Shown: in pieces, positions 3,778 through 64,000 of the stretch
How positions within the stretch are numbered: position 1 is the first letter of the stretch
How the letters are laid out: each line of letters opens with the position of its first letter
Assembly (NCBI RefSeq): GCF_988242995.1
Contig: NZ_OZ547043.1
DNA length: 64,000 nucleotides
Strand: one strand, 5' to 3'
Notes under the pieces: generated by a model
What the model saw: the letters and a program-made list of their open reading frames with translations, nothing else
Told to the model about the DNA's origin: nothing
Databases searched by the model: none
Made by a program: the position numbers and the translations under genes

Positions 3778-4257
3778 TCACTGGCTCGCGTCTTCCGAAG
3801 ATGTTTCAAATCGCACAAGGCCAGGCGGCAATGCCACGCTTAAGATGATCGGTTGCCATTCAGACCGGGCAGCAAACTTTCGAGAGCAGCCACGTGCAAT
3901 CAGGAATCCACCAACGCCACCGAGAATCGCACCGCATAATGCTGCAATATCTGAAGCAAAGAGTAGCTGAAATAGTGAAGCGATGAGGAATAATCCCACC
4001 AGCGGCGACATATAAACCAGTAATGCGGAGCTAAGCAGGCTGCCTTCGGCGATTCCTAATTCTACTTTTTGCCCCGGCACTAACGGCTCATCACAGGGTA
4101 CGACAATGGTATGCGTGGTTTGCGGGCCAAGTTTATTCAACACGCGGCTACCGCAACCGGCACGTGAAGCGCAGCTGCTGCATGAGGCTTTAACATCACA
4201 ACTAACCAGCGCCTGCCCGTTTTCCCAGGAGACGACGGTAGCCCACTCTTTGATCAT
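3778..4257 (-). CDS. rseC: Sigma-E regulatory protein RseC
   Basis: 159-aa ORF at the end of the rpoE-rseABC operon; start overlaps rseB stop. Confidence 0.88.
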   Translation of the reverse strand: MIKEWATVVSWENGQALVSCDVKASCSSCASRAGCGSRVLNKLGPQTTHTIVVPCDEPLVPGQKVELGIAEGSLLSSALLVYMSPLVGLFLIASLFQLLFASDIAALCGAILGGVGGFLIARGCSRKFAARSEWQPIILSVALPPGLVRFETSSEDASQ

Positions 4258-5210
4258 TGCGCTGCCCCGAACTTAATATTCTCGGCAATGCGTTTCGCCG
4301 TTTGCGGCGGCAGTTCACCGACAATGGTGATTTCGGCGTTATCACGTACGCTTGTACTGACGGTTCTGCGCCCGGTGCGCAACATCTGATCGGTGCTCGA
4401 TGGCGTAGCGCGGTTAACGTTTACCGAGAAGCTGAATAATCCGTCGGAATAGAGACGTGATTCGATAGGCATGTTGTCCATCGTCGGTAGCGGACGTCGA
4501 CTACTGGAAACTTCGCTAAAACCCTGTGGCAACCAGGTTGGCGTCCAGCTGAATTTAGCTTTTTCACCTACAGGAACAGAAAGCAACGGCGGCAAATTTG
4601 CCTTCGCCAGCGTCTGCATACTGCTGCTGATATCCTGATTGACATTAAAAGCAATCACGCGAAATTGTTCCAGCGTTTCACCATCGCGATCAAGGAGATC
4701 AACCCGCATCGGTAATTTCGATTCGGTGTCCATCCACACGATGTAGCTGTAGCGTGTACCATCTCGGGCAACCACACGAATGACTTCGCAAAGACGATCA
4801 GCAATACGCGTGCGCCCGACGGAGATAAAGTCGTAGTAAGGAGAAAGGCGTTTGAAATCGGTATAGATGAGCGATGGTAGAGAATCAACAATGTAATCGC
4901 CATTAAGCGTGAACGGTTCAAGTCCCGGTTCAAAATAGCTGATTTCATTGCCGCGCTGTACCACTTCCCGGCGCGGGCCATCCATTTGCAACAATTGTGC
5001 AAGAGGACGGTTATCGAGGCGTGCATGTCGATAACGCAGAGACTCAACACCCTGTTTATTGATGCTGATGAATGACAGCTCGTAATTCAGTGACTGACTG
5101 GCCAGGTTCATCTGCTGTAATAACGCCCCGGACGCGGGAGTGGCCGAGGCGTTAGCAGAGAATAACAGGCTACCTGTCACTAATGACATGGCAAACCAAA
5201 GTTGCTTCAT
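4254..5210 (-). CDS. rseB: Sigma-E regulatory protein RseB (periplasmic)
   Basis: 318-aa ORF with signal peptide, located between rseA and rseC. Confidence 0.9.
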   Translation of the reverse strand: MKQLWFAMSLVTGSLLFSANASATPASGALLQQMNLASQSLNYELSFISINKQGVESLRYRHARLDNRPLAQLLQMDGPRREVVQRGNEISYFEPGLEPFTLNGDYIVDSLPSLIYTDFKRLSPYYDFISVGRTRIADRLCEVIRVVARDGTRYSYIVWMDTESKLPMRVDLLDRDGETLEQFRVIAFNVNQDISSSMQTLAKANLPPLLSVPVGEKAKFSWTPTWLPQGFSEVSSSRRPLPTMDNMPIESRLYSDGLFSFSVNVNRATPSSTDQMLRTGRRTVSTSVRDNAEITIVGELPPQTAKRIAENIKFGAAQ

Positions 5211-52006: not shown

Positions 52007-52369
52007 GGGGCTGATTCTGGATTCGACGGGATTTGCGAAACCCAAGGTGCATGCCGAGGGGCGGTTGGCCTCGTAAAAAGCCGCAAAAAATAGTCGCAAA
52101 CGACGAAAACTACGCTTTAGCAGCTTAATAACCTGCTTAGAGCCCTCTCTCCCTAGCCTCCGCTCTTAGGACGGGGATCAAGAGAGGTCAAACCCAAAAG
52201 AGATCGCGTGGAAGCCCTGCCTGGGGTTGAAGCGTTAAAACTTAATCAGGCTAGTTTGTTAGTGGCGTGTCCGTCCGCAGCTGGCAAGCGAATGTAAAGA
52301 CTGACTAAGCATGTAGTACCGAGGATGTAGGAATTTCGGACGCGGGTTCAACTCCCGCCAGCTCCACCA
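52007..52369 (+). ncRNA. ssrA: tmRNA (SsrA / 10Sa RNA)
   Basis: 363 nt from GGGGCTGATTCTGGATTCGACGGG to ...CCCGCCAGCTCCACCA; contains the tag reading frame region; tRNA-like 3' end. Confidence 0.96.
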
Positions 52370-52483
52370 CTTGCTCTTCCGGATACGTCCGGAGAAATCC
52401 TGAAAGCCCGCATGGCGCAAGCCCTGTGGGCTTTTTTGTGTCTACCGTTGTCCGAGGATATCCAGCTGAGTCCAGTGATTATT

Positions 52484-52531
52484 GGTATACGTTTAGGTAT
52501 ACGGTAAGATGTATACCTAAATGCGTATACC
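52484..52531. promoter_or_regulatory. Repeat cluster at the int 5' end (GTATAC-containing repeats with an 11-bp inverted repeat); candidate Int arm-type sites or int operator
   Basis: TTTAGGTATAC-N8-GTATACCTAAA perfect inverted repeat (about 52492-52521) abutting the ATG at 52521, plus two more GGTATAC/CGTATACC copies. Confidence 0.45.
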
Positions 52532-53753
52532 AATTCATGAAGGAACGGCCAAAGTGGCAAGAACGACACGTCCCCTGACCAACACTGAAGTTCTGCGCGC
52601 TAAAGCGTTAGAAAAGGATCTAACGTTGCATGATGGCGATGGCCTTTTTCTGCTCGTTAAAACGAACGGTAAGAAATTATGGCGTTTCCGCTACCAAAAG
52701 CCAGTAACAAAACAGCGGACCATGATTAGTTTAGGAACCTTCCCTGCACTATCCTTGGCTGAAATCAGAAATGTGCGAGCTAAGTATCTTTCCTTGTTAG
52801 CCAAGGGGATCGATCCACAAACACACAATGAACAAGTCACACAACAACAACAAATTGCAGTAGAAAGTATTTTTTCAAACGTTGCTAAAAATTGGTTTGC
52901 CATTAAACGCAATAGCGTTACACCTGATTATGCAAAGGATATATGGCGATCCTTAGAGAAGGACATTTTCCCTGCTATCGGAGAGATTCCTGTTCAGGAA
53001 ATAAAAGCACGTATATTAATTGAAGCCCTAGAACCAATTAAGGCCCGCGGTGCACTCGAGACTGTTCGTCGTTTGGTGCAACGTATTAACGAAATTATGA
53101 TCTACGCTGTCAATACCGGATTAATTGAGGCTAATCCTGCGTCAGGTATTGGCATGGCTTTTGATAAACCCAAAAAGCAAAATTTGCCAACGCTGCGGCC
53201 AGAAGAATTACCTAAACTGATGCATTCTCTAGTAATGTCAAACCTGTCTATTCCTACTCGTTGTCTGATCGAATGGCAACTACTGACACTCGTTCGCCCT
53301 TCAGAAGCCTCTGGCGCCCGCTGGGATGAGATCGATTTAGAATCCAAACTTTGGAGAATTCCTGCTGAAAGGATGAAAGCAAAGCGCGAACATATAGTTC
53401 CTTTATCATCTCAAGCTTTAATTATTCTTGAAGTAATGAAACCCATAAGTGCTCATCGTGAACATATATTTCCTAGCAGGAATAACCCTCAAGAACCGAT
53501 GAATAGCCAAACAGCAAATGCAGCATTAAAACGCATAGGGTACGGAGGAAAGTTAGTTGCACATGGACTCCGTTCTATTGCCAGCACTGCATTAAATGAA
53601 GCCGAATTTAATTCTGACATTATTGAATCAGCTCTTGCACATGTTGATAAAAATGAGGTGAGAAGAGCATATAACCGCTCCACTTATCTTGATAAACGTA
53701 AAGAGATGATGGCTTGGTGGGGAAATTTTATATATAAAAATAATTCATTATAA
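52521..53753 (+). CDS. int: Tyrosine recombinase (phage integrase, P4/CP4-57 family)
   Basis: 410-aa ORF with C-terminal catalytic region (HGLRSIAST...LAHVD...RRAYNRSTYLDKR); real start may be the downstream GTG (about 52551, reading VARTTRPLT). Confidence 0.88.
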   Translation: MRIPIHEGTAKVARTTRPLTNTEVLRAKALEKDLTLHDGDGLFLLVKTNGKKLWRFRYQKPVTKQRTMISLGTFPALSLAEIRNVRAKYLSLLAKGIDPQTHNEQVTQQQQIAVESIFSNVAKNWFAIKRNSVTPDYAKDIWRSLEKDIFPAIGEIPVQEIKARILIEALEPIKARGALETVRRLVQRINEIMIYAVNTGLIEANPASGIGMAFDKPKKQNLPTLRPEELPKLMHSLVMSNLSIPTRCLIEWQLLTLVRPSEASGARWDEIDLESKLWRIPAERMKAKREHIVPLSSQALIILEVMKPISAHREHIFPSRNNPQEPMNSQTANAALKRIGYGGKLVAHGLRSIASTALNEAEFNSDIIESALAHVDKNEVRRAYNRSTYLDKRKEMMAWWGNFIYKNNSL

Positions 53754-53764
53754 AAGGTATTACA

Positions 53765-54799
53765 ATGAATATTGATTCTATAAAACTTCATTTACAAAAT
53801 TTTTTCACAAATAATCCAACTGTTCTTATCGGTTCTGGCCTCTCTCTCGGTGAGGGGATTCCAGGTATGAAAACATTGGGAGAACATCTTAATACAACTA
53901 TCCCCAAATTAGTAAGCGGGGATCTTATAAGAGAATGGGGTATCATAAGTTCCAAACTAAATAATGGTATGGGACTTGAAGATGCCATGGCATTTCTTAA
54001 AGATGAAAGTGAACTTATCCCATTAATTATTCAGCACACCGCAGATCTTATTTTAAAGCATGAAAATACTGTAATATGCTCTGTAATCAATGGAGAAAAA
54101 AATCTAGCATTTACATCTTTATTGAATCACTTAACTTTTAATCAAAATGAATTGATAATTATAACTCCAAACTATGATAGACTAATTGAAATAGCATGTG
54201 AAATTGCTGGTCTAGAAATTTCAACAGGATTTATCAATAGTTATCATTGTATAAATAATCCTGAAGTTGAGTTAGATAAATTCAAAATCACCCACTCTAT
54301 CAAAACCACACGAGGTAAATCTACAGTTCAAATTAGAACTAAAAAACACGTTAAAATATTTAAACCTCATGGTAGTCTTGATTGGTTCAAGGCTGACGAT
54401 AAAATTATCAGGACCAGCTTTCAAAATAAACATAAAAGATTAATTATTACACCAGGTACAAGTAAATTCAGAGCTGGATATCAGCAGCCTTTTGATTGGC
54501 ATAGAGAAAAAGCAAACCATTATATCAAAAGAGCAAAATCACTATTAATTATTGGCTATGGGTTTAATGATGAGCAGTTAGAAGTACATTTGAAATCAAA
54601 AATACGTGAAAAAATACCTGTTTTATTAATGACATATGAATTGACATCAAACGCTCAAAAAATATGTGATGATAATCCTTCTATAACATATGTTATTGCA
54701 GAAGGAAACAATTCCATCGTTTGTATCGATGGCATTAAATATAAAATCGAAAAGAATATTTGGTCTTTAAATGAGTTTGTTAAAGAGGTACTTAAATAA
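53765..54799 (+). CDS. SIR2-like NAD+-binding protein (predicted NADase effector); cargo gene 1
   Basis: 344-aa ORF. Gly-rich NAD-binding loop VLIGSGLSLGEG, TPNYD motif (catalytic Asn codon 54170-54172), KPHGS motif (His codon 54367-54369) and second Rossmann motif IIGYGFND. Low GC; stop overlaps next gene's start (TAATG). Confidence 0.8.
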   Translation: MNIDSIKLHLQNFFTNNPTVLIGSGLSLGEGIPGMKTLGEHLNTTIPKLVSGDLIREWGIISSKLNNGMGLEDAMAFLKDESELIPLIIQHTADLILKHENTVICSVINGEKNLAFTSLLNHLTFNQNELIIITPNYDRLIEIACEIAGLEISTGFINSYHCINNPEVELDKFKITHSIKTTRGKSTVQIRTKKHVKIFKPHGSLDWFKADDKIIRTSFQNKHKRLIITPGTSKFRAGYQQPFDWHREKANHYIKRAKSLLIIGYGFNDEQLEVHLKSKIREKIPVLLMTYELTSNAQKICDDNPSITYVIAEGNNSIVCIDGIKYKIEKNIWSLNEFVKEVLK

Positions 54800-56583
54800 T
54801 GGAATATTACGTCATTAACACTGATGAAACATGCTTTATCGGACGAATCGCAAATGTTGATACCGATCGTGCTATTATCATTTCAGAGTCTCCAGAGATC
54901 ATACAAGAACTAACCGTTTTTGACTTGGTTGCTATTGAAGGCAATACCCCCACAGAGTTTCTTGTTGGTATCATTGAAAAAGTAAAACGCTCTATTGGAG
55001 AAATACAAACTATTGATACTGAAGAAAATATTGAAGATGACAGTGAAAAAGATTTCGATAATATCTTCCAAACTTATTCTATCGATCATGATATTCTTCA
55101 AGTAGCTCTTATCGGCACTTTCTGGGAGGTTTACGGGGATAGAAGGAAAATTTTTAAAAGAGGAGCACAATATTTTCCAAAAGTTGAAAAACAAGCATTT
55201 CTTATAAAAAAAGACAGTCTTGAGAAATTAATGTCGGCAGTCGACAATGATACTCCTGATGAGCTAAAACTCATACTAGGCAACTATGGAAATACCAATT
55301 CACGAGCAGTTGCAAATGGGGATAAATTATTTCAGAGACATGCTGCCCTATTGGGGAGTACTGGTTCAGGTAAAAGTTGGACAGTTGCGTCATTACTAGA
55401 ACAAGCCTCAAAATTAAAATACAACAATATTGTACTTTATGATCTTCATGGTGAATACAAAACTTTATCTGATACACATAATAAATCGAACCGCCCGAGC
55501 ATAGCCGATTATTTTAAAATTGCAAGCCCAGGAAATATCGACGATGTAAATAGTATTTATGTACCTCATTGGTTATTAAACAAAGAAGAAATGCTATCAC
55601 TGTTGTTAGATAGAAGCGATAGCAATGCACCTAATCAGGCAGCAAGATTTAGCTACCACGTGAGAGAGCTAAAAAAAGAATACATCACACACAACAGATT
55701 AATACACTTAGAAGATTGTTTGACTGTTGATGCTCCAATACCCTACTCTATCGAGGATCTTATTAGCAGACTGCACGATGATGATCAAGGTATGAAAAAA
55801 GGTACTAATAATAAAGAAATAAAAGGTGATTGGAATGGAAAACTAACAAGATTCATAAGCAGGTTAAGAACAAAAGTAGACGACAAGAGGAACTGTTTTC
55901 TATTCTCAAATAAACCAGAACACAACCAATATGATTGGTTGGAGAAATACGCTTGTAAAATTTTAAAATCAGATAGCACAGATCATGGCATTAAAATAAT
56001 TGATTTTTCTGAAGTTCCTTCAGATATTATGCCTATTGTTATTGGTGTATTGACCAGATTTTTATACAACGTCCAATTTTGGAGATGTGAGACCGAACGA
56101 ACCCCTATAGCATTCGTTTGTGACGAAGCTCATATTTATTTACCCGCTAAGGATACCACTGAGGCTGAAACAAAAATATCCTTATCAATATTCGAGAAAA
56201 TTGCTAAAGAAGGCAGAAAGTACGGAGTATCTTTATTAGTCGTCAGCCAAAGACCTTCTGATGTTAGCAGAACAATACTAAGTCAATGTAATAACATAAT
56301 TTCTCTCAGACTAAGTAATTATAGAGATCAACAGGTAGTTAGTCGGTTAATGCCTGATTCATTGAGTTCATTAACATCCATACTACCAATTCTTGATACT
56401 GGGGAAGCAATAGTTCTTGGCGACTCTGTTCTATTACCAGCTAGAATAAAATTGAATCCACCAACACTCAAGCCCGATAGCGCAACCAGAGCTTTTTGGA
56501 ATGAGTGGGGGGCAATTGAAGCAAAAGAAATCTCTATAGCAAATGCTGTTGAATCACTCAGGAGACAATCTCGTAATCGCTAA
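54799..56583 (+). CDS. HerA/FtsK-type ATPase; cargo gene 2
   Basis: 594-aa ORF. Walker A GSTGSGKS (Lys codon 55372-55374), Walker B FVCDEAH (56122-56133), and KEGRKYGVSLLVVSQRP arginine-finger region typical of HerA. Translationally coupled to the SIR2-like gene. Confidence 0.8.
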   Translation: MEYYVINTDETCFIGRIANVDTDRAIIISESPEIIQELTVFDLVAIEGNTPTEFLVGIIEKVKRSIGEIQTIDTEENIEDDSEKDFDNIFQTYSIDHDILQVALIGTFWEVYGDRRKIFKRGAQYFPKVEKQAFLIKKDSLEKLMSAVDNDTPDELKLILGNYGNTNSRAVANGDKLFQRHAALLGSTGSGKSWTVASLLEQASKLKYNNIVLYDLHGEYKTLSDTHNKSNRPSIADYFKIASPGNIDDVNSIYVPHWLLNKEEMLSLLLDRSDSNAPNQAARFSYHVRELKKEYITHNRLIHLEDCLTVDAPIPYSIEDLISRLHDDDQGMKKGTNNKEIKGDWNGKLTRFISRLRTKVDDKRNCFLFSNKPEHNQYDWLEKYACKILKSDSTDHGIKIIDFSEVPSDIMPIVIGVLTRFLYNVQFWRCETERTPIAFVCDEAHIYLPAKDTTEAETKISLSIFEKIAKEGRKYGVSLLVVSQRPSDVSRTILSQCNNIISLRLSNYRDQQVVSRLMPDSLSSLTSILPILDTGEAIVLGDSVLLPARIKLNPPTLKPDSATRAFWNEWGAIEAKEISIANAVESLRRQSRNR

Positions 56584-56608: not shown

Positions 56609-56627
56609 GTGCTTTCCCCGCCTCGCC
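56609..56627 (-). other. P2/P4-type cos site (19-nt cohesive end sequence)
   Basis: Window reads GTGCTTTCCCCGCCTCGCC, the exact reverse complement of the P2/P4 cohesive end GGCGAGGCGGGGAAAGCAC as recalled; flanked by GC-rich dyads. Confidence 0.8.
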
Positions 56628-56791
56628 CGCCCGCTTTGCGGGGCGGTTTCAGTGCAGTTGCACTGACACGCTCAGGCCGCGCCGGGAATGGCGCGGTCTG
56701 CAGAAAATGAGGCAGGAAAACGCATGCAAAGCCATGCACCTTATCGATGCATGGCTTTTTTCAGTAAAAACGGGCGGATTTTCGGGGAATT

Positions 56792-57364
56792 TTACACAGA
56801 CTGATGTGATGCCAGTTGCGCACTTTTACGCGAAAAAATCATGTTCTGCGCAGGAGTGAATTTTTCACGGCTGTCATCCACCGAAGCCGCGTCAGGCCTG
56901 AATCCGATGGTCGTTAAAATGTCGCTATCCTGTGCGGAATAATTAATTTTTTCACCCTTCGCAAGCCAGGACTGGAGGGCTTCACGCAGGGCATCTGTGG
57001 CACGCTGTATGGCACAGTTTCGGGCAATGGCCGTCAGCTCACTGTAGCCCATCAGCTCCGGTGCCAGTGCCGCCGCCAGTGCTGTGCCGTGCTGCTGCAT
57101 AAAATCATTCAGCCGGTCGCGGATGCTGATGTGCTGAACGGCTTCATGCGAACGAATATAACGACCGGCGGCCTGATTCACCTGCCATTTTCTGACTTCG
57201 ATAATATTGCGTAATTCGTCCAGGCGACTGACGTTTCTGCCTTCTCCTGACAGAAGCCGCAGGTATTCCTGTTCGGCCGCTGCCAGCTCATTTTTGCGTT
57301 GCAGCCATGCTGCTTTGTTATTCTGACAGGTGTCAAAGGCCTGCTGTAAGGCTGTGCTTTCCAT
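56792..57364 (-). CDS. psu: P4 Psu-like protein (polarity suppression / capsid decoration)
   Basis: 190-aa ORF, the same length as P4 Psu, in the conserved psu-delta-sid order next to cos. Confidence 0.75.
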   Translation of the reverse strand: MESTALQQAFDTCQNNKAAWLQRKNELAAAEQEYLRLLSGEGRNVSRLDELRNIIEVRKWQVNQAAGRYIRSHEAVQHISIRDRLNDFMQQHGTALAAALAPELMGYSELTAIARNCAIQRATDALREALQSWLAKGEKINYSAQDSDILTTIGFRPDAASVDDSREKFTPAQNMIFSRKSAQLASHQSV

Positions 57365-57437
57365 CGTTATCTCTTTCTCATCATGCTGAAGAATAAAAAT
57401 ACGGTGTGCGGCGACGGCCGGTGTTAACCGGCAGCCC

Positions 57438-57938
57438 TCATTCCAGACGCAGCGAATATGATTGTGTTTTTAACCGTACTGGCGGCAGTTCCTGTTTTTC
57501 ATGCAGGCGTTCTGCCAGTTCGTCCGGCGTGACCGGGCGGACAATGAAACGGTTGATGGTCTGAAGCGTTTTAAACACCAGACCACAGCCCGGATCCGTG
57601 CACACATAAAAACGCTCGGTGACTTCCTGAGACAGACGCCGCGATGTTCTTGACAGTGCAAGGCCTTTACATCTCCGACAACAATATCCGGTAACAAGCA
57701 TTCTTTTCGGCCGTTTCATACTGCCGGAGGCTGACGTCAGTGAATCGCGGTATCTCTGTTTGCCTGAAATGTATTCCATTCCTGAATCTTTACAGTCAGA
57801 GAAAAAGCTTTCACTCGCTTCAAATGTCGCAGAGCAATAAATATTCCGGCACTGTGCAATCATTATCTTGGTGCCATCGTCCATGAAATGTGCGCGACGG
57901 GTGTGAGCAACATGTCCACACGACGGGCAGTAAATCAT
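57438..57938 (-). CDS. delta: P4 Delta-like late-gene activator (tandem Ogr-type zinc fingers)
   Basis: 166-aa ORF with two C-x2-C...C-x4-C zinc-finger units (MIYCPSCGHVAH...CRNIYC and YCCRRCKG...CTDPGC). Confidence 0.85.
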   Translation of the reverse strand: MIYCPSCGHVAHTRRAHFMDDGTKIMIAQCRNIYCSATFEASESFFSDCKDSGMEYISGKQRYRDSLTSASGSMKRPKRMLVTGYCCRRCKGLALSRTSRRLSQEVTERFYVCTDPGCGLVFKTLQTINRFIVRPVTPDELAERLHEKQELPPVRLKTQSYSLRLE

Positions 57939-58669
57939 GACAGCAGCCCTCTGGCCTTAAGCTCTGCTCCCTGCTGGTCTATTTTGTCCTGCCACACCTT
58001 GCGCTGTGCCGGTGTGCCTGCCACCTCATAATCCATGTGCGGGAGTGTTGCCGCTGACAGTCCGGCCAGCCGGAGAACCGGCTCGCCGGTGAGGCTGATT
58101 TGCATCTGTTTTATTTTCTGTTCCAGCGATGATTTCACCTGCTGCATGACAGCCTTTTCCGGCGCGACGTAGCCCTGATGGCCGGTGGTGTTGGCGAGCG
58201 GATTTTCCTGTACCAGGATGCTCAGATGCATTGCCCGGACAAGCGCCTCACAGGTTTCATTCAGGGCGTGTTCCAGCTCATGCTCTGCATACAGACTCAG
58301 CAGGTGATGATGTGCCTTCCGGTAGGCGGTGGCCGTGCTGTCACACGCCCCTTTCAGGCGTTCACATTCAAAATTCAGCACCACGGCCAGATTGTCATAT
58401 TCCTGTACCAGCTCCCGGCGTGCCACGCGCTCAATGTGGCGCTGTTTCAGCTCATCGCTCAGGACACCACCGGCTGCACGAAAGGCCGTGCGCCAGTCGT
58501 CAGCGTCGTTTCCGTCGGCCTGCGTCAGCGCATTTTTTTCCTGCTCTGCCCGTTCAATGGCCGTGATGGTCTCATCCATCAGGCGGGCGTTCTCAAGATG
58601 AGCGGCTCTGGCCTTTTCCAGTTGTGCCAGCGCGGGTTGCAGATATTCAGGGATGGTGTTGTCAGACAT
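57935..58669 (-). CDS. sid: P4 Sid-like external scaffold (capsid size determination) protein
   Basis: ORF track gives 266 aa; start trimmed to MSDNTIPEYLQPALAQLEK (244 aa, the P4 Sid length) with RBS; coiled-coil-rich. Confidence 0.75.
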   Translation of the reverse strand: MSDNTIPEYLQPALAQLEKARAAHLENARLMDETITAIERAEQEKNALTQADGNDADDWRTAFRAAGGVLSDELKQRHIERVARRELVQEYDNLAVVLNFECERLKGACDSTATAYRKAHHHLLSLYAEHELEHALNETCEALVRAMHLSILVQENPLANTTGHQGYVAPEKAVMQQVKSSLEQKIKQMQISLTGEPVLRLAGLSAATLPHMDYEVAGTPAQRKVWQDKIDQQGAELKARGLLS

Positions 58670-58703
58670 TTTCCGGCTCCTCGTCACTTCAGGTTGAGAA
58701 AAT

Positions 58704-58759
58704 TGTGACGTACACCGGACAACAACACGACGCATTGCAGATGTGCCAGCCCTGACACA
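58704..58759. promoter_or_regulatory. Two TGT-N12-ACA dyads; candidate Delta/Ogr activator sites for the divergent late promoters (Psid / PLL)
   Basis: TGTgacgtacaccggACA (58704-58721) and TGTgccagccctgacACA (58742-58759) match the P2/P4 late-promoter activator element TGT-N12-ACA. Confidence 0.55.
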
Positions 58760-58838
58760 GGAGACTCATCCTCAGACCGGCAAGCCAGGAAAAGGTCGCA
58801 GGAAAAACCGGCTTACTGTTTGTTTTTTTATATTTTAC

Positions 58839-58942
58839 TGTTCACCTCTGTTCACCTTAAGAAAAAAGATAAGTAATACAGTAAGTTAAAGGATGAACAA
58901 TCGCAGTAATGACTGTTCACCGTCTGTTCACCACTGTTCACC
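58839..58942. repeat. Candidate P4-type replication origin (ori) iteron cluster
   Basis: Five direct copies of TGTTCACC (58839, 58849, 58914, 58925, 58935) plus a degenerate inverted copy; about 4.8 kb from the crr repeats, as in P4. Confidence 0.7.
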
Positions 58943-59221
58943 CGCTCATGGACTTTTTGTGCTGTTTACTACTGTTTGTTTTTATTAATTCGCCGGGAAT
59001 GAATAAGAAGAAACGATTTGTATTTCACTATAAAAATTACGAATTGCTTTAAGTGGCTTTAAATGACTTTAAGTGGAGATGAACAAAAAATACACAAGCA
59101 TTGTAAGGCTGCCGGAACAAATCCCCCCTGTTGCGTCTGCCGAAAATATTCACAAAATAAAGCGCTACCCGAAGCCGGACGGACTTATCCGGTGCTGTAT
59201 GGACATTAACGAGGTAGCCCG

Positions 59222-59488
59222 ATGCAATCTGTTTTTTCTTCCCCGTCTCCCGCCCCAGTGACGCCACTGATGCCGCTGCCGGACATCACGCAGGAGCGTT
59301 TTTTACGTCTGCCGGAAGTGATGCACCTGTGCGGCCTGTCACGCTCGACCATCTATGAACTTATCCGTAAGGGGGAATTTCCGCCGCAGGTGAGTCTTGG
59401 CGGTAAAAATGTGGCCTGGCTGCACTCTGAAGTCACCGCATGGATGGCCGGGCGCATTGCCGGACGCAAACGGGGGTACGACGCATGA
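59222..59488 (+). CDS. vis: AlpA/Vis-family helix-turn-helix regulator
   Basis: 88-aa ORF with AlpA-type HTH ([27 protein letters not shown]), the length of P4 Vis. Confidence 0.75.
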
Positions 59489-60084
59489 TGATGCCCGCTC
59501 TGCAAAAAGTCCCTTTTTCTGGCTTGCCTTTTTCCGGCATTTGCGGATATAGTTTTTCCGCTGCCGCAAAATCGGCAGCCGGGCGTGGAAACCCGAGTAT
59601 GTTATCGGCGACATATGACGCGCCATGCGTCTTTTTTTGTGTCGCAATCAACGCCACAGAGCGCCAGATTATGGTGTGGTGTGTGGTCAGTCGAGCAAAT
59701 GGCACTCCGTGCATTCTGCCCGCGTCCGCTCATTATACCGCAGAGTCAATGGTAGCTCAGGCGGGGCAGCCTCCGCGCTGGCCGGTTTCCGATAACGCCG
59801 GTATTTCCACCCCCGTCTGGGCTATCGCCATCGAGCGTGGAAACTCCGGCGATAGCGTCATTTACGCTGTTATCGGAGGTTGCCTTATGGCTACGACCCT
59901 TATCCCCTCACACCCTGAATTTGTCTTTGTGTTTGCGGCTGTCCGTCGCGCAGACCGTCATCCCCGTATCTGTATGCTTCGCACCGTCGCCGGTGATGAA
60001 CGCAGCGCCCGCCGTTCCCTTGTCCGTGACTATGTGCTCTCCCTTGCTGCCCGTCTGCCGGTGGTGGAGGTGTCCCGTGCGTAA
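59485..60084 (+). CDS. Hypothetical protein, P4 orf199-like (coding status uncertain)
   Basis: 214-aa ORF trimmed to an internal Met to give 199 aa; Ala/Pro-rich and GC-rich, so it could instead overlie the RNA-based immunity locus. Confidence 0.35.
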
Positions 60085-60364
60085 TAAAAAAGCCCCTCAG
60101 ACCGTCTCAGCACGTCATGACGCCCGTGAACACCTCAGCATTGAGGCTTACCATAAGCTCAACCGCGCCAGCGCCGTATCCCAGTTTGTTGGGGGTGATT
60201 TGATTCACCGTGAACTCTCCGGCCTGCATCAGCTCTACATTCCGCATATTTTCAGCTACCTGAATGAAGATATTGATTTTGTGCTGAATGAGCTGAAAGC
60301 CAAAGGCCTGTGCCGCGATTTTCTCGCCCAGCAGAAAGACCGGGGAGACAGGACGCATGTTTGA
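60077..60364 (+). CDS. Hypothetical protein, P4 epsilon-like (possible helper-prophage derepressor)
   Basis: About 95 codons from a putative GTG start within ORF 59837-60364 ([25 protein letters not shown]...); size and position match P4 epsilon. Assignment is by analogy only. Confidence 0.4.
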
Positions 60365-60812
60365 TTTTCCCCAGCCCGGTGAGATTTACCGTTCTGCCGG
60401 TTTTCCCGATGTGGCCGTGGTCGGCATTCTGGAAGACGGTATTCCGTGGGAAATGCCGTACCGCTGCCCGGACATTGTCTGGAACCCGTACCGCCGTAAA
60501 TTCAGTATCCTTGTGCGTATCCTCGCTGACGGGCGCACCACAGACATCCCGCTGGGGCGTTTTCTGCGGGAATTTACCTGTGACCGTCCTGACCTGTTTA
60601 AACGCAGCCCCGTAAACCGGCATGCGGTACTGAAAGAAATGGCCGGAGACCCGGAATTACAGAAATGGCGGGAGAAATATCTGGATATTTACCCGCAGGA
60701 CCCTGTTCCGGTCAGCCGGGCGGCACCGGTGGCGCGGGAATGGCGGGAAATTCCCCGCACGGAGCCTGACCCGGAAACCACCCCGGATAACAGTTACCGC
60801 AATTATCTGTAA
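60357..60812 (+). CDS. Hypothetical protein, P4 orf151-like
   Basis: 151-aa ORF whose start overlaps the previous ORF's stop; position upstream of alpha as in P4. Confidence 0.6.
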   Translation: MFDFPQPGEIYRSAGFPDVAVVGILEDGIPWEMPYRCPDIVWNPYRRKFSILVRILADGRTTDIPLGRFLREFTCDRPDLFKRSPVNRHAVLKEMAGDPELQKWREKYLDIYPQDPVPVSRAAPVAREWREIPRTEPDPETTPDNSYRNYL

Positions 60813-60947
60813 TTAAAAAACGACACCCGAAAAATTAAATGTGCGTATTCGCGCAGGGATACGCACGTCTTCAGGAGACGCAGATATGCCTTATCAGTTA
60901 ATGCAACCGGCACGGAATGCAGTCATCTGTCACAGGGAGGAAAACAA

Positions 60948-61268
60948 ATGAAAACACCCTTACCGCCCGTCTTACGCGCTGCCCTTTACCGTCGCGCTGT
61001 CGCCTGTGCCTGGCTGACCGTGTGCGAACGTCAGCACCGCTACCCGCATCTCACCCTTGAGTCACTGGAGGCGGCCATCGCCGCTGAGCTGGAAGGCTTT
61101 TATCTGCGCCAGCACGGTGAGGAAAAAGGGCGTCAGATAGCCTGTGCCCTGCTGGAAGATTTAATGGAATCCGGCCCCCTGAAGGCCGCGCCGTCGCTGT
61201 CCTTTCTCGGGCTGGTTGTGATGGATGAACTCTGTGCCCGTCACATAAAAGCGCCGGTACTGCACTGA
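60948..61268 (+). CDS. Hypothetical protein, P4 orf106-like
   Basis: 106-aa ORF directly upstream of the alpha gene. Confidence 0.55.
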
Positions 61269-61282
61269 AGGAGAACAACACC

Positions 61283-63616
61283 ATGAAAATGAACGTAACC
61301 GCCACCGTCAGCCATGCGCTCGGCCACTGGCCGCGTATTCTCCCGGCGCTGGGGATTCAGGTGCTGAAGAACCATCATCAGCCCTGTCCGGTCTGTGGCG
61401 GGAGTGACCGCTTCCGTTTTGATGACAGGGAGGGGCGCGGCACCTGGTACTGCAATCAGTGTGGTGCCGGTGACGGCCTGAAACTGGTTGAAAAGGTGTT
61501 TGGTGTCTCCCCGTCCGACGCGGCCGCAAAGGTGGCTGCCGTGACCGGCAGTCTGCCCCCGGCTGACCCGGCAGTGACGGCTGCCGCCGTTGCTGAAACA
61601 GACGCTGCCCGGAAGAACGCCGCCGCACTGGTACAAACCCTGATGGCAAAAACCCGTCCCGGAACCGGTAACGCCTACCTGACCCGCAAGGGCTTTCCCG
61701 GCCGGGAATGCCGGATGCTGACCGGCACACACAGAGCCGGTGGCGTGAGCTGGCGCGCCGGTGACCTTGTGGTGCCACTGTATGACGACAGCGGCGAACT
61801 GGTTAACCTTCAGTTAATCAGTGCTGACGGCCGTAAGCGCACCCTGAAAGGCGGACAGGTCAGGGGCACCTGTCACACCCTTGAAGGACAGAATCAGGCC
61901 GGAAAACGTCTGTGGATAGCGGAGGGATACGCGACCGCACTTACCGTGCATCACCTGACCGGTGAAACGGTGATGGTGGCGCTTTCTTCCGTGAATCTCC
62001 TTTCTCTGGCCAGCCTTGCCCGGCAGAAGCATCCGGCCTGTCAGATTGTCCTTGCTGCTGACCGTGACCTCAGCGGTGACGGCCAGAAAAAAGCCGCCGC
62101 AGCCGCAGATGCGTGTGAAGGTGTTGTTGCCCTGCCGCCGGTCTTCGGTGACTGGAATGATGCCTTCACGCAGTACGGCGGGGAAGCCACCCGTAAGGCC
62201 ATTTATGATGCCATCCGGCCACCGGCTGAAAGCCCGTTCGACACCATGAGCGAAGCGGAGTTTTCCGCCATGAGTACCAGCGAAAAGGCCATGCGTATCT
62301 ATGAGCATTACGGCGAGGCGCTCGCGGTCGATGCCAACGGCCAGCTTCTGTCCCGCTATGAAAATGGTGTCTGGAAGGTGCTGCCGCCACAGGACTTTGC
62401 CCGGGATGTGGCCGGGCTGTTTCAGCGTCTGCGAGCGCCGTTCTCCTCCGGGAAGGTGGCCTCCGTGGTGGACACCCTGAAGCTGATTATTCCGCAGCAG
62501 GAAGCCCCCTCCCGCCGCCTGATTGGCTTTCGTAACGGCGTGCTCGACACGCAGAACGGCACGTTCCACCCGCACAGTCCGTCACACTGGATGCGCACCC
62601 TGTGCGATGTGGATTTCACCCCGCCGGTGGACGGTGAAACGCTGGAAACCCACGCCCCCGCCTTCTGGCGCTGGCTTGACCGTGCCGCCGGTGGCCGTGC
62701 GGAAAAACGCGACGTGATTCTGGCTGCACTGTTTATGGTGCTGGCAAACCGCTACGACTGGCAGCTCTTTCTGGAGGTGACCGGTCCCGGCGGCAGCGGC
62801 AAAAGTATCATGGCCGAAATCGCCACCCTGCTGGCCGGGGAGGATAACGCCACGTCGGCCACCATCGAGACGCTGGAATCCCCGCGTGAACGTGCCGCGT
62901 TAACTGGCTTCTCACTGATACGCCTGCCGGATCAGGAAAAATGGAGCGGCGACGGTGCCGGACTCAAGGCCATCACCGGCGGCGATGCGGTGTCCGTTGA
63001 CCCGAAATACCGGGATGCGTACTCCACGCACATCCCGGCGGTGATTCTGGCCGTGAACAATAACCCGATGCGCTTCACCGACCGCAGCGGCGGCGTGTCA
63101 CGCCGGCGGGTGATTATTCACTTCCCGGAACAGATAGCCCCGCAGGAGCGCGACCCGCAGCTTAAGGACAAAATCACCCGCGAGCTGGCGGTCATCGTGC
63201 GTCACCTGATGCAGAAGTTCAGCGACCCGATGCTCGCCCGGTCACTGCTTCAGTCCCAGCAGAACTCAGACGAGGCACTGAACATCAAACGGGATGCCGA
63301 CCCGACGTTTGATTTTATCGGCTATCTGGAAACCCTGCCGCAGACCAGCGGCATGTATATGGGGAACGCCAGTATCATCCCGCGTAATTACCGTAAATAC
63401 CTCTATCACGCCTATCTGGCCTACATGGAGGCAAACGGCTACCGGAATGTACTCAGTCTGAAAATGTTCGGACTGGGGCTGCCGGTGATGCTGAAAGAAT
63501 ACGGGCTGAATTACGAGAAGCGCCATACCAAACAGGGGATACAGACCAACCTGACGCTGAAAGAAGAAAGCTACGGCGACTGGCTGCCAAAATGTGACGA
63601 CCCTGCAACAGCCTGA
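61283..63616 (+). CDS. alpha: P4 alpha-type replication protein (zinc-finger primase - TOPRIM - helicase - ori-binding)
   Basis: 777-aa ORF (P4 alpha length). N-terminal zinc finger CPVCGGSDRFRF...WYCNQCG, TOPRIM-like acidic patch (AADRD), helicase Walker A (TGPGGSGKS). Confidence 0.88.
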   Translation: MKMNVTATVSHALGHWPRILPALGIQVLKNHHQPCPVCGGSDRFRFDDREGRGTWYCNQCGAGDGLKLVEKVFGVSPSDAAAKVAAVTGSLPPADPAVTAAAVAETDAARKNAAALVQTLMAKTRPGTGNAYLTRKGFPGRECRMLTGTHRAGGVSWRAGDLVVPLYDDSGELVNLQLISADGRKRTLKGGQVRGTCHTLEGQNQAGKRLWIAEGYATALTVHHLTGETVMVALSSVNLLSLASLARQKHPACQIVLAADRDLSGDGQKKAAAAADACEGVVALPPVFGDWNDAFTQYGGEATRKAIYDAIRPPAESPFDTMSEAEFSAMSTSEKAMRIYEHYGEALAVDANGQLLSRYENGVWKVLPPQDFARDVAGLFQRLRAPFSSGKVASVVDTLKLIIPQQEAPSRRLIGFRNGVLDTQNGTFHPHSPSHWMRTLCDVDFTPPVDGETLETHAPAFWRWLDRAAGGRAEKRDVILAALFMVLANRYDWQLFLEVTGPGGSGKSIMAEIATLLAGEDNATSATIETLESPRERAALTGFSLIRLPDQEKWSGDGAGLKAITGGDAVSVDPKYRDAYSTHIPAVILAVNNNPMRFTDRSGGVSRRRVIIHFPEQIAPQERDPQLKDKITRELAVIVRHLMQKFSDPMLARSLLQSQQNSDEALNIKRDADPTFDFIGYLETLPQTSGMYMGNASIIPRNYRKYLYHAYLAYMEANGYRNVLSLKMFGLGLPVMLKEYGLNYEKRHTKQGIQTNLTLKEESYGDWLPKCDDPATA

Positions 63617-63649
63617 CCCACCTGACCGGCATCTGCCGGTCTTTTTTTA

Positions 63650-63975
63650 TCCCTGAATCCCCCGAAGGTGAACAATCCAGTGTTCACCCTTCACCGTATA
63701 TTCACCCGTTATCACACTGAAATTAAAAGAGAAAAACGAAAGGTGAACAGTGTGAACAATCAAATCAAAAAAAACTTTTTTTCTTCCTGTGTGATTTTCA
63801 GCACGGGAAATTAATCCCCTGCACAAGTCACACCGGCAGAATGCCGGAGGTGAAGAATCGAATGTTCACCCTTCACCCATTATTCACCACCTATCACTCT
63901 GAAATAAAAGGAGAAAACAGAAAGGTGAACAGTGTGAACAGTTCTTTCGAAAAAAAATTTTTTTCCTGTACGATA
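63650..63975. repeat. crr-like cis replication region: two direct repeats of about 130 bp, period about 185 bp, each carrying TGTTCACC/GGTGAACA iterons
   Basis: Repeat 1 (about 63660-63790) and repeat 2 (about 63845-63970) align nearly base for base (ggtgaacaatccagtgttcaccc... versus ggtgaagaatcgaatgttcaccc...); located just 3' of alpha. Confidence 0.75.
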
Positions 63976-64000
63976 TAGCATCAATCCAAGTAAAAATGCG

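What the first reader, a model, noticed from the sequence alone, without database searches (positions are those of the whole stretch)
63650..63975. Two near-identical direct repeats (about 130 bp, period about 185 bp) downstream of alpha
Repeat 1 (about 63660-63790) and repeat 2 (about 63845-63970) share the same order of sub-motifs: GGTGAACA, TGTTCACCCTTCACC, TATTCACC, ATCACACTGAAATTAAAAGAGAAAAAC, GGTGAACAGTGTGAACA, then an A/T run. This fits the P4 crr element, which is required in cis for replication. The window ends inside or just after it, so the satellite's right end is not visible.
Basis: partly seen in the sequence, partly recalled or inferred. Interest (0 to 1): 0.45.

Follow-up and report, generated by a model that had tools for sequence, protein, structure and literature searches.

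The report
P4 satellite replication site crr
The two repeats are the already-known crr replication site of a P4-type phage satellite lying in an Escherichia chromosome, almost base-for-base the same as in phage P4, so the finding is correct but ordinary.

Summary
Window 63662-63783 and 63844-63965 are direct repeats: 122 nt, 100/122 identical, no gaps, 182 nt apart, far beyond chance.

The interpretation also holds. The region is the crr ("cis required region for replication") of a P4-like satellite.
- It aligns to the annotated P4 crr at 95.7% identity.
- All ten annotated 'type 1' octamers (TGTTCACC family) and the alpha terminator are identical to P4.
- It starts 46 nt after a 777-aa alpha primase-helicase that is 99% identical to P4 alpha, whose C-terminus matches the solved P4 origin-binding domain.
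- The same octamers cluster 4.7 kb away at ori1.

The window ends 35-37 nt after crr, not inside it. attR lies about 103-124 nt beyond the window end.

Across 80 related loci the crr signature is always downstream of alpha and in one orientation. Octamers are the best-conserved columns. The two-unit form is a minority; single units are commoner.

In relatives, anti-phage defence genes sit between alpha and crr, or between separated crr units. A 2026 preprint already reports that cargo hotspot, without mentioning crr.

Verdict: already known, low interest.

The parts
61283..63616 (+). alpha gene (777 aa primase-helicase and origin-binding initiator)
   Evidence: ORF listed. It is 771/777 identical to P4 alpha. 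Residues 671-770 match PDB 1ka8, the P4 origin-binding domain, at E 1e-63.
63624..63648 (+). t-alpha, the intrinsic terminator of alpha (hairpin GACCGGCATCTGCCGGTC plus a T-run)
   Evidence: Terminator scan hit at 63624-63641 followed by a T-run. Identical to the annotated P4 'talpha' feature.
63662..63963 (.). crr, the complete cis replication region as delimited in the P4 record
   Evidence: Maps to P4 4291-4590 at 95.7% identity. blastn hits H1-H3. P4 feature tables.
63662..63783 (+). crr direct repeat 1 (alpha-proximal unit)
   Evidence: Equals P4 4471-4590 with one substitution (G63680, C in P4) and one extra T in the T-run.
63844..63965 (+). crr direct repeat 2 (att-proximal unit)
   Evidence: 120/120 identical to P4 4291-4410.
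63784..63843 (.). Spacer between the two units. It contains the hairpin CCGGCAGAATGCCGG (63833-63847), which resembles the t-alpha hairpin.
   Evidence: 13 of 61 positions differ from P4, against 0/80 in the octamers. It is the least conserved part of crr across 13 tandem-type elements. Sequence read.
63667..63674 (-). type 1 octamer (GGTGAACA on the + strand; TGTTCACC on the - strand), DR1 site 1
   Evidence: Exact match. Identical to the P4 feature at 4578-4585.
63681..63688 (+). type 1 octamer TGTTCACC, DR1 site 2. It is followed by a conserved degenerate core, CTTCACC, at 63689-63695.
   Evidence: The CTTCACC columns are conserved across genera and are not annotated in X51522.
63699..63706 (+). 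type 1 octamer variant TATTCACC, DR1 site 3
63742..63758 (-). Tandem pair of type 1 octamers, GGTGAACA-G-TGTGAACA (DR1 sites 4 and 5). This is the most conserved block of the unit.
   Evidence: With up to 2 mismatches this 16-mer occurs 90 times in the forward orientation, always downstream of alpha, in the related loci.
63767..63782 (.). A8-C-T7 tract closing DR1
   Evidence: Sequence. The A-run and T-run columns are conserved across genera.
63849..63856 (-). type 1 octamer variant (GGTGAAGA on the + strand), DR2 site 1
63863..63870 (+). type 1 octamer TGTTCACC, DR2 site 2 (plus CTTCACC at 63871-63877)
63881..63888 (+). type 1 octamer variant TATTCACC, DR2 site 3
63924..63940 (-). Tandem pair of type 1 octamers, GGTGAACA-G-TGTGAACA (DR2 sites 4 and 5)
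63950..63964 (.). A8-T7 tract closing DR2. Homology with P4 stops at about 63963.
63964..64000 (.). Start of the att-proximal segment belonging to the ssrA-type integrase module. It is unrelated to P4 at this point. Arm repeats and attR lie beyond the window end.
   Evidence: No similarity to P4 after 63963. Window 63961-64000 matches EC67 (L003 13660-13699) exactly, and MS20657 carries the same post-crr flank. In EC67 the arm repeats follow at +27 to +49 and attR at +103 to +124.
58839..58942 (+). ori1 octamer cluster, the partner site of crr: six type 1 repeats, five exact and one (58892-58899) with a substitution
59047..59076 (.). ori 'type 2' repeats (3 x 10 nt)
   Evidence: Identical to P4 9176-9205.
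60948..61268 (+). ORF106 (cnr, the copy-number regulator that acts with alpha)
   Evidence: 100% nucleotide identity to P4 6984-7304. The name cnr comes from PMC8628076 and my own knowledge.

Best explanation
The region is crr, the second cis-acting half of the bipartite replication origin of a P4-type satellite prophage. The prophage is about 11.75 kb and is integrated at ssrA in an Escherichia chromosome.

Each of the two ~120-nt units carries five annotated (plus one degenerate) copies of the octamer TGTTCACC. That is the same word that is clustered at ori1, 4.7 kb upstream.

Proposed mechanism:
1. After excision, the satellite's alpha protein binds these octamers at both ori1 and crr through its C-terminal winged-helix domain.
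2. Occupancy of crr in cis helps alpha assemble and become active at ori1, most likely by bridging the two sites through a DNA loop.
3. Alpha then unwinds and primes DNA there itself.
4. Cnr modulates this binding to set copy number.

What is shown here:
- Identity of sequence, position and octamers with P4 crr.
- Presence of intact alpha, cnr and ori1.
- Family-wide conservation of the octamers downstream of alpha.

What is taken from the P4 record and literature:
- The cis requirement for replication.
- Alpha binding to the octamers.

What is inferred: the looping and activation step.
For: - 95% identity to the annotated P4 crr, with matches only to P4 among 50,697 phage records.
- The feature tables of X51522, X05623 and NC_001609 label the region crr, with two 120-bp direct repeats carrying 'ori type 1 repeats'.
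- All 10 octamers and t-alpha are identical to P4.
- Exact TGTTCACC occurs 13 times in the window against 1.8 expected, and 10 of the 13 lie in ori1 or crr.
- Alpha is 771/777 identical to P4 alpha, and its C-terminus matches the solved P4 origin-binding domain 1ka8.
- A secondary source states that alpha binds the origin repeats through a winged-helix domain and then unwinds and primes (PMC4234260).
- In related loci, the octamer enriched de novo downstream of alpha is the same word that clusters at the ori position.
- The crr signature gives 90 forward hits, all downstream of alpha, and 6 reverse hits, all at ori, against about 0.07 expected by chance.
- Column conservation is ordered octamers (94%) > rest of the repeat (82%) > spacer (75%) > flank (54%); octamers versus the rest of the repeat give p 6e-8.
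- The eighth octamer base (C or T) varies in step at ori and crr: Spearman 0.62, n=33, not corrected for phylogeny.
Against: - Nothing in the sequence contradicts the explanation.
- Function was not tested.
- One of the six ori1 octamers is mutated (GATGAACA at 58892-58899), so it is not certain that this particular copy can replicate.
- 19 of 81 related loci (80 fetched loci plus the window) show no recognisable crr signature, so crr in this form is not universal among alpha homologues.
- The co-variation statistics are not corrected for phylogeny.
Confidence: 0.93

Rival explanations
1. crr is mainly a negative copy-number control locus. In this reading it is a spare iteron cluster that titrates alpha or pairs with ori1 ('handcuffing'), as the secondary iteron clusters of iteron plasmids do, rather than an activator of initiation.
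For: The architecture fits: an initiator-binding iteron cluster distant from the origin. cnr, the copy-number regulator, lies next to alpha and is 100% conserved. Unit number varies naturally among relatives, with one, two or three units, as would be expected of a dosage-tuning site.
Against: The P4 records label the region as required for replication, which is a positive role. A purely inhibitory site would be lost easily, yet the signature is retained in 62 of 81 loci in a fixed orientation. The two roles are not mutually exclusive.
Confidence: 0.1
2. The repeats belong to the integration apparatus, as integrase or excisionase arm-type binding sites of attP, not to replication.
For: crr lies between alpha and the att site. 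In relatives the att-proximal unit sits a constant 100-170 nt from att.
Against: - The integrase arm repeats are a different word (ATTGGTATACG / TTAGGTATACG). They lie outside crr, next to int at 52481-52503 and, in EC67, after crr.
- crr is conserved between P4 and this element although their int/att modules are unrelated: P4's int/att-side DNA (P4 1-4290) has no match in the window, and here the neighbouring gene is ssrA.
- The crr word is the one found at ori1.
Confidence: 0.02
3. The region encodes something: a small protein (RefSeq annotates a GeneMark ORF, P4p05, starting inside P4 crr) or a structured RNA.
For: NC_001609 carries 'hypothetical protein, predicted by GeneMark' at 4096-4431, overlapping crr. 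A 59-aa ORF is listed on the minus strand at 63647-63826.
Against: - The P4p05 start codon is AAG in the window, and the frame stops just after DR2.
- There is no promoter-like site.
- No Rfam match comes near any family's threshold.
- Single-strand folds are unremarkable, z -1.1 to -2.3.
- Conservation follows the octamers, not a reading frame.
Confidence: 0.01
4. In this prophage the repeat is an inert relic: a true crr homologue that is no longer used because the satellite cannot replicate.
For: One ori1 octamer carries a substitution. From memory, P4 deletion studies found ori1 sensitive to loss of iterons.
Against: - alpha, cnr, epsilon, sid, delta, psu, the 19-nt cohesive-end sequence of cos, int and all crr octamers are intact.
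- The crr units are under stronger conservation than the neighbouring DNA.
- A single base change is not a deletion.
Confidence: 0.05

Closest known systems
Bacteriophage P4 crr (X51522 / NC_001609 positions 4291-4590; X05623 2733-3032)
   Same: - Position directly after the alpha terminator and before att.
- Two ~120-nt direct repeats.
- Five annotated type 1 octamers per repeat, in the same order and orientation, all identical.
- 95.7% overall identity.
- Cognate alpha 99% identical.
   Different: - Period 182 instead of 180 nt, from one extra T in DR1's T-run and a 61-nt spacer.
- The spacer is 21% diverged.
- DNA beyond DR2 is unrelated because the int/att module is of the ssrA type instead of P4's own.
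P4 ori1 (type 1 octamer cluster, P4 9310-9413; window 58839-58942)
   Same: It uses the same octamer, TGTTCACC, presumably bound by the same alpha domain. It also has tandem octamers at helical-turn spacing (9-11 nt).
   Different: - ori1 has six octamers, mostly in one orientation, plus type 2 repeats.
- crr units have a mixed-orientation layout (- + + ... - -) around an A/T-rich centre, followed by an A-run/T-run.
- Replication is reported to start at ori1, not at crr (own knowledge).
Single-unit crr variants of other P4-like satellites (for example loci L012, L081, L057; E. coli MS20657)
   Same: The same unit anatomy and the same position after alpha.
   Different: One unit instead of two. 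About 19-22 of the 81 loci examined have a single adjacent unit, against 8 with the tandem pair. MS20657 carries a DR1/DR2 hybrid unit at the same chromosomal site.
Distant initiator-binding sites of iteron replicons (for example R6K pi-mediated gamma-alpha/beta looping, P1 incA, F incC). This is a functional analogy only.
   Same: A second cluster of initiator-binding repeats, kilobases from the site of initiation and acting in cis (own knowledge).
   Different: The proteins are unrelated. In P4 the initiator is itself the helicase and primase. In the plasmids the extra clusters are mostly inhibitory or define alternative origins.

Membership tests
P4 crr (cis replication region of P4-like satellites) | DNA homology to the crr annotated in the P4 reference records | tested here: met
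   95.7% identity over 63662-63963. DR2 is 120/120 identical and DR1 differs by one substitution plus one extra T.
P4 crr (cis replication region of P4-like satellites) | Two ~120-bp direct repeats separated by ~60 bp | tested here: met
   Units of 122 nt (120-121 nt on the P4 delimitation), 60-61 nt spacer, period 182.
P4 crr (cis replication region of P4-like satellites) | Each repeat carries the type 1 octamer (TGTTCACC) shared with ori1 | tested here: met
   Ten sites, all identical to the P4 features. The same octamer occurs five times exactly, plus one variant, at ori1 58839-58942.
P4 crr (cis replication region of P4-like satellites) | Location between the alpha terminator and the attachment site | tested here: met
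   crr starts 46 nt after the alpha stop codon and 14 nt after t-alpha. The att side lies beyond the window but is seen in EC67, which matches the last 40 nt of the window (63961-64000) exactly; MS20657 carries the same post-crr flank.
P4 crr (cis replication region of P4-like satellites) | Cognate alpha initiator with the octamer-binding C-terminal domain encoded in cis | tested here: met
   Alpha is 771/777 identical to P4 alpha. Residues 671-770 match 1ka8 at E 1e-63.
P4 crr (cis replication region of P4-like satellites) | Specific binding by alpha protein | not testable with these tools
   Reported for P4 (Ziegelin et al.; cited through PMC4234260, and my own knowledge). Here it is supported only indirectly, by octamer conservation and ori/crr co-variation.
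P4 crr (cis replication region of P4-like satellites) | Required in cis for replication from ori1 | not testable with these tools
   Stated in the feature tables of X51522 and X05623. The primary papers are not held in the library.
P4-like satellite prophage (context) | Core genes psu, delta, sid, epsilon, cnr and alpha, plus cos and an integrase, in P4 order | tested here: met
   Window 56628-63963 is collinear with P4 11624-4291 at 97.9% identity. Every core feature maps. The 19-nt cohesive-end sequence of cos is identical to P4's. The integrase domains are present.

The most novel reading that the evidence does not exclude
The tandem crr of P4 and of this window may be the 'closed' state of an accessory-gene slot.

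In relatives the crr unit next to att stays 100-170 nt from att, while diverse cargo of 0.6-2.5 kb sits between alpha and that unit, or between an alpha-proximal and an att-proximal unit. The cargo includes known defence genes such as BovA, PDC-S25 and an AriA/OLD-like ATPase. Distances between neighbouring units range from 166 to about 2600 nt.

On this reading the 61-nt spacer at 63784-63843, which is 21% diverged from P4 against about 2% for the whole P4-homologous block, marks where cargo is gained and lost. The repeated crr units would then act both as alpha-binding sites and as the homologous boundaries that allow cassette exchange.

A 2026 preprint reports the primase-att defence hotspot but does not mention crr.
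Probability: 0.3. Interest if true: 0.3.

Novelty: already known. Interest (0 to 1): 0.1.

Why it matters
For this window it matters little. It confirms that the P4-like satellite carries a complete replication module (ori1, cnr, alpha, crr), and it fixes the right edge of the conserved P4 core at 63963.

There are two practical points.
- crr is present in about a fifth of complete E. coli genomes (1126 of 5426) but is essentially never annotated. The P4-like survey read here (PMC8628076) delimits elements at the alpha gene and never mentions crr. So crr, and any cargo between alpha and crr, falls outside an element delimited that way.
- The crr signature (GTGAACAGTGTGAACA, downstream of alpha, about 100-170 nt before att) is a cheap marker for the true right end of such satellites and for the minor defence-gene slot next to it.

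Tried and rejected
- Primary literature: I tried to read Tocchetti 1999, Ziegelin 1993 and the Christie & Dokland review by PubMed or PMC id. None is held. Full-text searches for crr returned mostly crRNA papers. The experimental role of crr therefore rests on GenBank feature tables, one secondary statement and my memory.
- Coding reading: rejected. The RefSeq GeneMark ORF is not conserved.
- RNA reading: rejected. No credible Rfam match, and folds are not unusual.
- Promoter reading: no promoter-like sites; the only terminator-like site is t-alpha.
- Integrase arm-site reading: rejected. The arm repeats are a different word located elsewhere.
- Exact-octamer counting missed crr in distant relatives. 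Mismatch-tolerant counting and the tandem-pair signature recovered many of them.
- Co-variation between alpha's C-terminal residues and the eighth base of the octamer gave strong p-values, but it is a single two-clade split, so I do not count it as evidence.
- The ori/crr eighth-base correlation is likewise uncorrected for phylogeny and is offered only as weak support.

Full report
**1. The observation**

The repeat finder reports 63662-63783 and 63844-63965: 122 nt, 82% identity, 182 nt start-to-start. A gapped local alignment returns the same limits with 100/122 matches and no gaps. The best direct-repeat score of the region is 67, against 8.4 +/- 1.1 (maximum 12) in 200 shuffles.

The listed sub-motifs occur in both copies in the stated order. 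'Near-identical' overstates the similarity between the two copies, which is 82%. Each copy is, however, nearly identical to its own counterpart in P4.

**2. What it is**

Against 50,697 phage records the region matches only P4, at 95% identity. The match lies on the features annotated 'crr (cis required region for replication)', 'crr 120bp direct repeat' and 'ori type 1 repeat'.

Mapping every P4 feature through an alignment gives the following:
- crr = 63662-63963 (95.7% identity).
- The att-proximal unit is 120/120 identical to P4.
- The alpha-proximal unit differs by one substitution and one extra T.
- All ten annotated octamers are identical.
- The alpha terminator (63624-63648) is identical, and the terminator scan also finds it.

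The upstream ORF 61283-63616 encodes a 777-aa protein that is 771/777 identical to P4 alpha. Its residues 671-770 match the solved P4 origin-binding domain 1ka8 at E 1e-63.

Exact TGTTCACC occurs 13 times in the window against 1.8 expected. Five of these are at 58839-58942 (ori1) and five are in crr. With one mismatch allowed, all ten annotated crr sites are recovered.

**3. Context**

The element sits directly after a tmRNA gene (ssrA, 52007-52369), in a chromosomal flank 95-99% identical to E. coli (recN-bamE-ratA-smpB-ssrA).

Window 56628-63963 is collinear with P4 11624-4291 at 97.9% identity. The block starts at cos, whose 19-nt cohesive-end sequence is identical to P4's (56609-56627), and ends exactly at the outer edge of crr.

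The rest of the element is not P4-like at the DNA level:
- A tyrosine integrase with an arm-binding domain (52521-53753).
- A SIR2-HerA defence pair (53765-56583).

Beyond 63963 the sequence is unrelated to P4. It continues exactly as in E. coli EC67, and MS20657 carries the same post-crr flank.

Comparing an unoccupied site (BH100) with the window's left junction and EC67's right junction defines the attachment sites:
- attB: ...GCCAGCTCCACCA|ATCATGATTGG
- attR: TTCAAACTCCGCCAGCCCACCA|ATCATGATTGG

attR would lie about 103-124 nt past the window end. The integrase arm repeats (ATTGGTATACG / TTAGGTATACG, also at 52481-52503) would lie at about +27 to +49.

**4. Evidence bearing on function**

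The cis requirement is stated in the P4 records. That alpha binds the origin repeats through a winged-helix domain and then unwinds and primes is stated in PMC4234260, citing Ziegelin & Lanka 1995 and Yeo et al. 2002. I could not read the primary papers. The sufficiency of one repeat, alpha binding to crr specifically, and ori-crr looping are my recollection of Flensburg & Calendar 1987, Ziegelin et al. 1993 and Tocchetti et al. 1999.

Comparative tests were possible. I fetched 80 loci encoding alpha relatives (56-87% identity, many Enterobacterales genera). Counts out of 81 include the window itself.
- The octamers most enriched de novo in the 400 nt after alpha are TGTTCAC-type words. The same words cluster 1.6-2.6 kb upstream of alpha, at the ori position.
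- The 16-nt tandem-octamer signature (up to 2 mismatches) gives 90 forward hits, all downstream of alpha, in 62 of 81 loci. It gives 6 reverse hits, all at ori. About 0.07 hits are expected by chance.
- Among 13 tandem-type crr regions, octamer columns are 94% conserved, the rest of the unit 82%, the spacer 75% and the flank 54%. Octamers versus the rest of the unit give p 6e-8.
- Between the window and P4 there are 0/80 differences in octamers, 2/161 in the rest of the units and 13/61 in the spacer.
- The eighth octamer base (C or T) varies in step at ori and crr: Spearman 0.62, n=33. This is not corrected for phylogeny.
- A matching split in alpha's C-terminal domain is a single two-clade contrast, so I discount it.

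**5. Rivals**

- A coding reading fails. The RefSeq GeneMark ORF that overlaps P4 crr has no start codon here and stops just after DR2.
- An RNA reading fails.
- There is no promoter-like site.
- An integrase arm-site reading fails, because the arm repeats are a different word located elsewhere, and crr is shared between elements with unrelated int/att modules.
- A copy-number-control ('handcuffing') role is compatible with the anatomy and is not exclusive of the positive role. It cannot be separated from that role here.

**6. Variation in the family**

The two-unit form is not the rule. Among the 81 loci:
- 8 have the tandem pair next to alpha.
- 19-22 have a single adjacent unit, depending on whether three borderline loci (units 142-145 nt from the alpha stop) are counted.
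- 12 have an adjacent unit plus one or two units 0.3-2.6 kb further on.
- 19-22 have crr displaced by 0.3-3.9 kb.
- 19 show no signature.

In E. coli the two-unit form dominates: 1036 of the 1126 genomes with a match cover at least 80% of the query. E. coli MS20657, at the same ssrA-glaH site, has one hybrid unit with a DR1-like left half and a DR2-like right half. That is the product expected of recombination between the repeats.

**7. Side observation**

The intervals between alpha and a displaced crr, or between separated units, contain 39 ORFs in 36 unrelated groups. They include:
- BovA (E 2e-227).
- An AriA/OLD-like ATPase.
- PDC-S25 (E 7e-156).
- PDC-M04A.
- An HNH/type IV restriction-like protein.
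- A KAP NTPase.

Where att repeats could be found (L032, L033, L064, L071, L077), the last crr unit lies 100-170 nt before them. The cargo is therefore inside the element.

[quoted passage not shown] Two earlier papers, one surveying P4-like elements and one describing their psu-int defence hotspot, do not mention crr either.

**8. Verdict**

The finding is a correct identification of a well-known element in a near-identical copy. Novelty is 'already known' and interest is low.

The only mildly new angle is the relation between crr units and the primase-att cargo slot. It concerns relatives rather than this window, and it remains an inference.

Noticed in passing
window 53765-56583: The satellite carries a SIR2 (344 aa) plus HerA (594 aa) defence pair between the integrase and cos, in the known P4 int-psu hotspot. 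PADLOC gives SIR2 at E 1e-124 and HerA at E 9e-210.
   Followed up: partly
window 52007-52520 and 63964-64000: The P4 core is joined to a non-P4 integrase/att module that targets ssrA (tmRNA). Homology with P4 breaks exactly at cos on one side and at the outer edge of crr DR2 on the other. attB, attL and attR were resolved with strains BH100 and EC67, and attR lies about 103-124 nt past the window end.
   Followed up: yes
window 58892-58899: One of the six ori1 type 1 octamers reads GATGAACA instead of P4's GGTGAACA. The other five, and the three type 2 repeats, are identical to P4. The effect on origin activity is unknown.
   Followed up: no
window 63833-63847 versus 63627-63640: The crr spacer contains the hairpin CCGGCAGAATGCCGG. 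It resembles the alpha terminator hairpin CCGGCATCTGCCGG but lacks a T-run. This suggests the ancestral duplicated unit (~182 nt) included the terminator hairpin.
   Followed up: no
window 63689-63695 and 63871-63877: A degenerate sixth octamer core, CTTCACC, abuts site 2 in both units. It is conserved across genera and is not annotated in the P4 records.
   Followed up: partly
L086 (E. coli MS20657) 1159-1420: At the same ssrA-glaH site with the same right flank, this strain has a single crr unit that is DR1-like on the left and DR2-like on the right. It is an apparent deletion by recombination between the two repeats.
   Followed up: partly
L021, L024, L063, L064, L069, L077 and 19 other loci, downstream of alpha: Highly diverse ORFs (39 in 36 unrelated groups) lie between alpha and crr or between separated crr units, inside the element. 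They include BovA, an AriA/OLD-like ATPase, PDC-S25, PDC-M04A, an HNH enzyme and a KAP NTPase. This corresponds to the primase-att hotspot of a 2026 preprint, here shown to be bounded by crr units.
   Followed up: partly
E. coli complete genomes (search of window 63650-63975): crr-like DNA is present in 1126 of 5426 complete E. coli genomes, always on chromosomes. In nearly all rows shown it has no annotated feature; the few with a feature carry a hypothetical protein or an integrase call.
   Followed up: partly
NC_001609 4096-4431 (P4p05): The RefSeq GeneMark 'hypothetical protein' runs from inside crr across the attP core. Its start codon and frame are not conserved in the window, so it is very likely a spurious gene call.
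   Followed up: yes
alpha residues 687-750 in 33 related loci: A linked set of substitutions in the origin-binding domain (K727T, L731K, N718H, Q687E, V723T, H748R, K750N) accompanies use of TGTTCACT rather than TGTTCACC octamers. It is a single clade split, so co-evolution is not demonstrated.
   Followed up: partly
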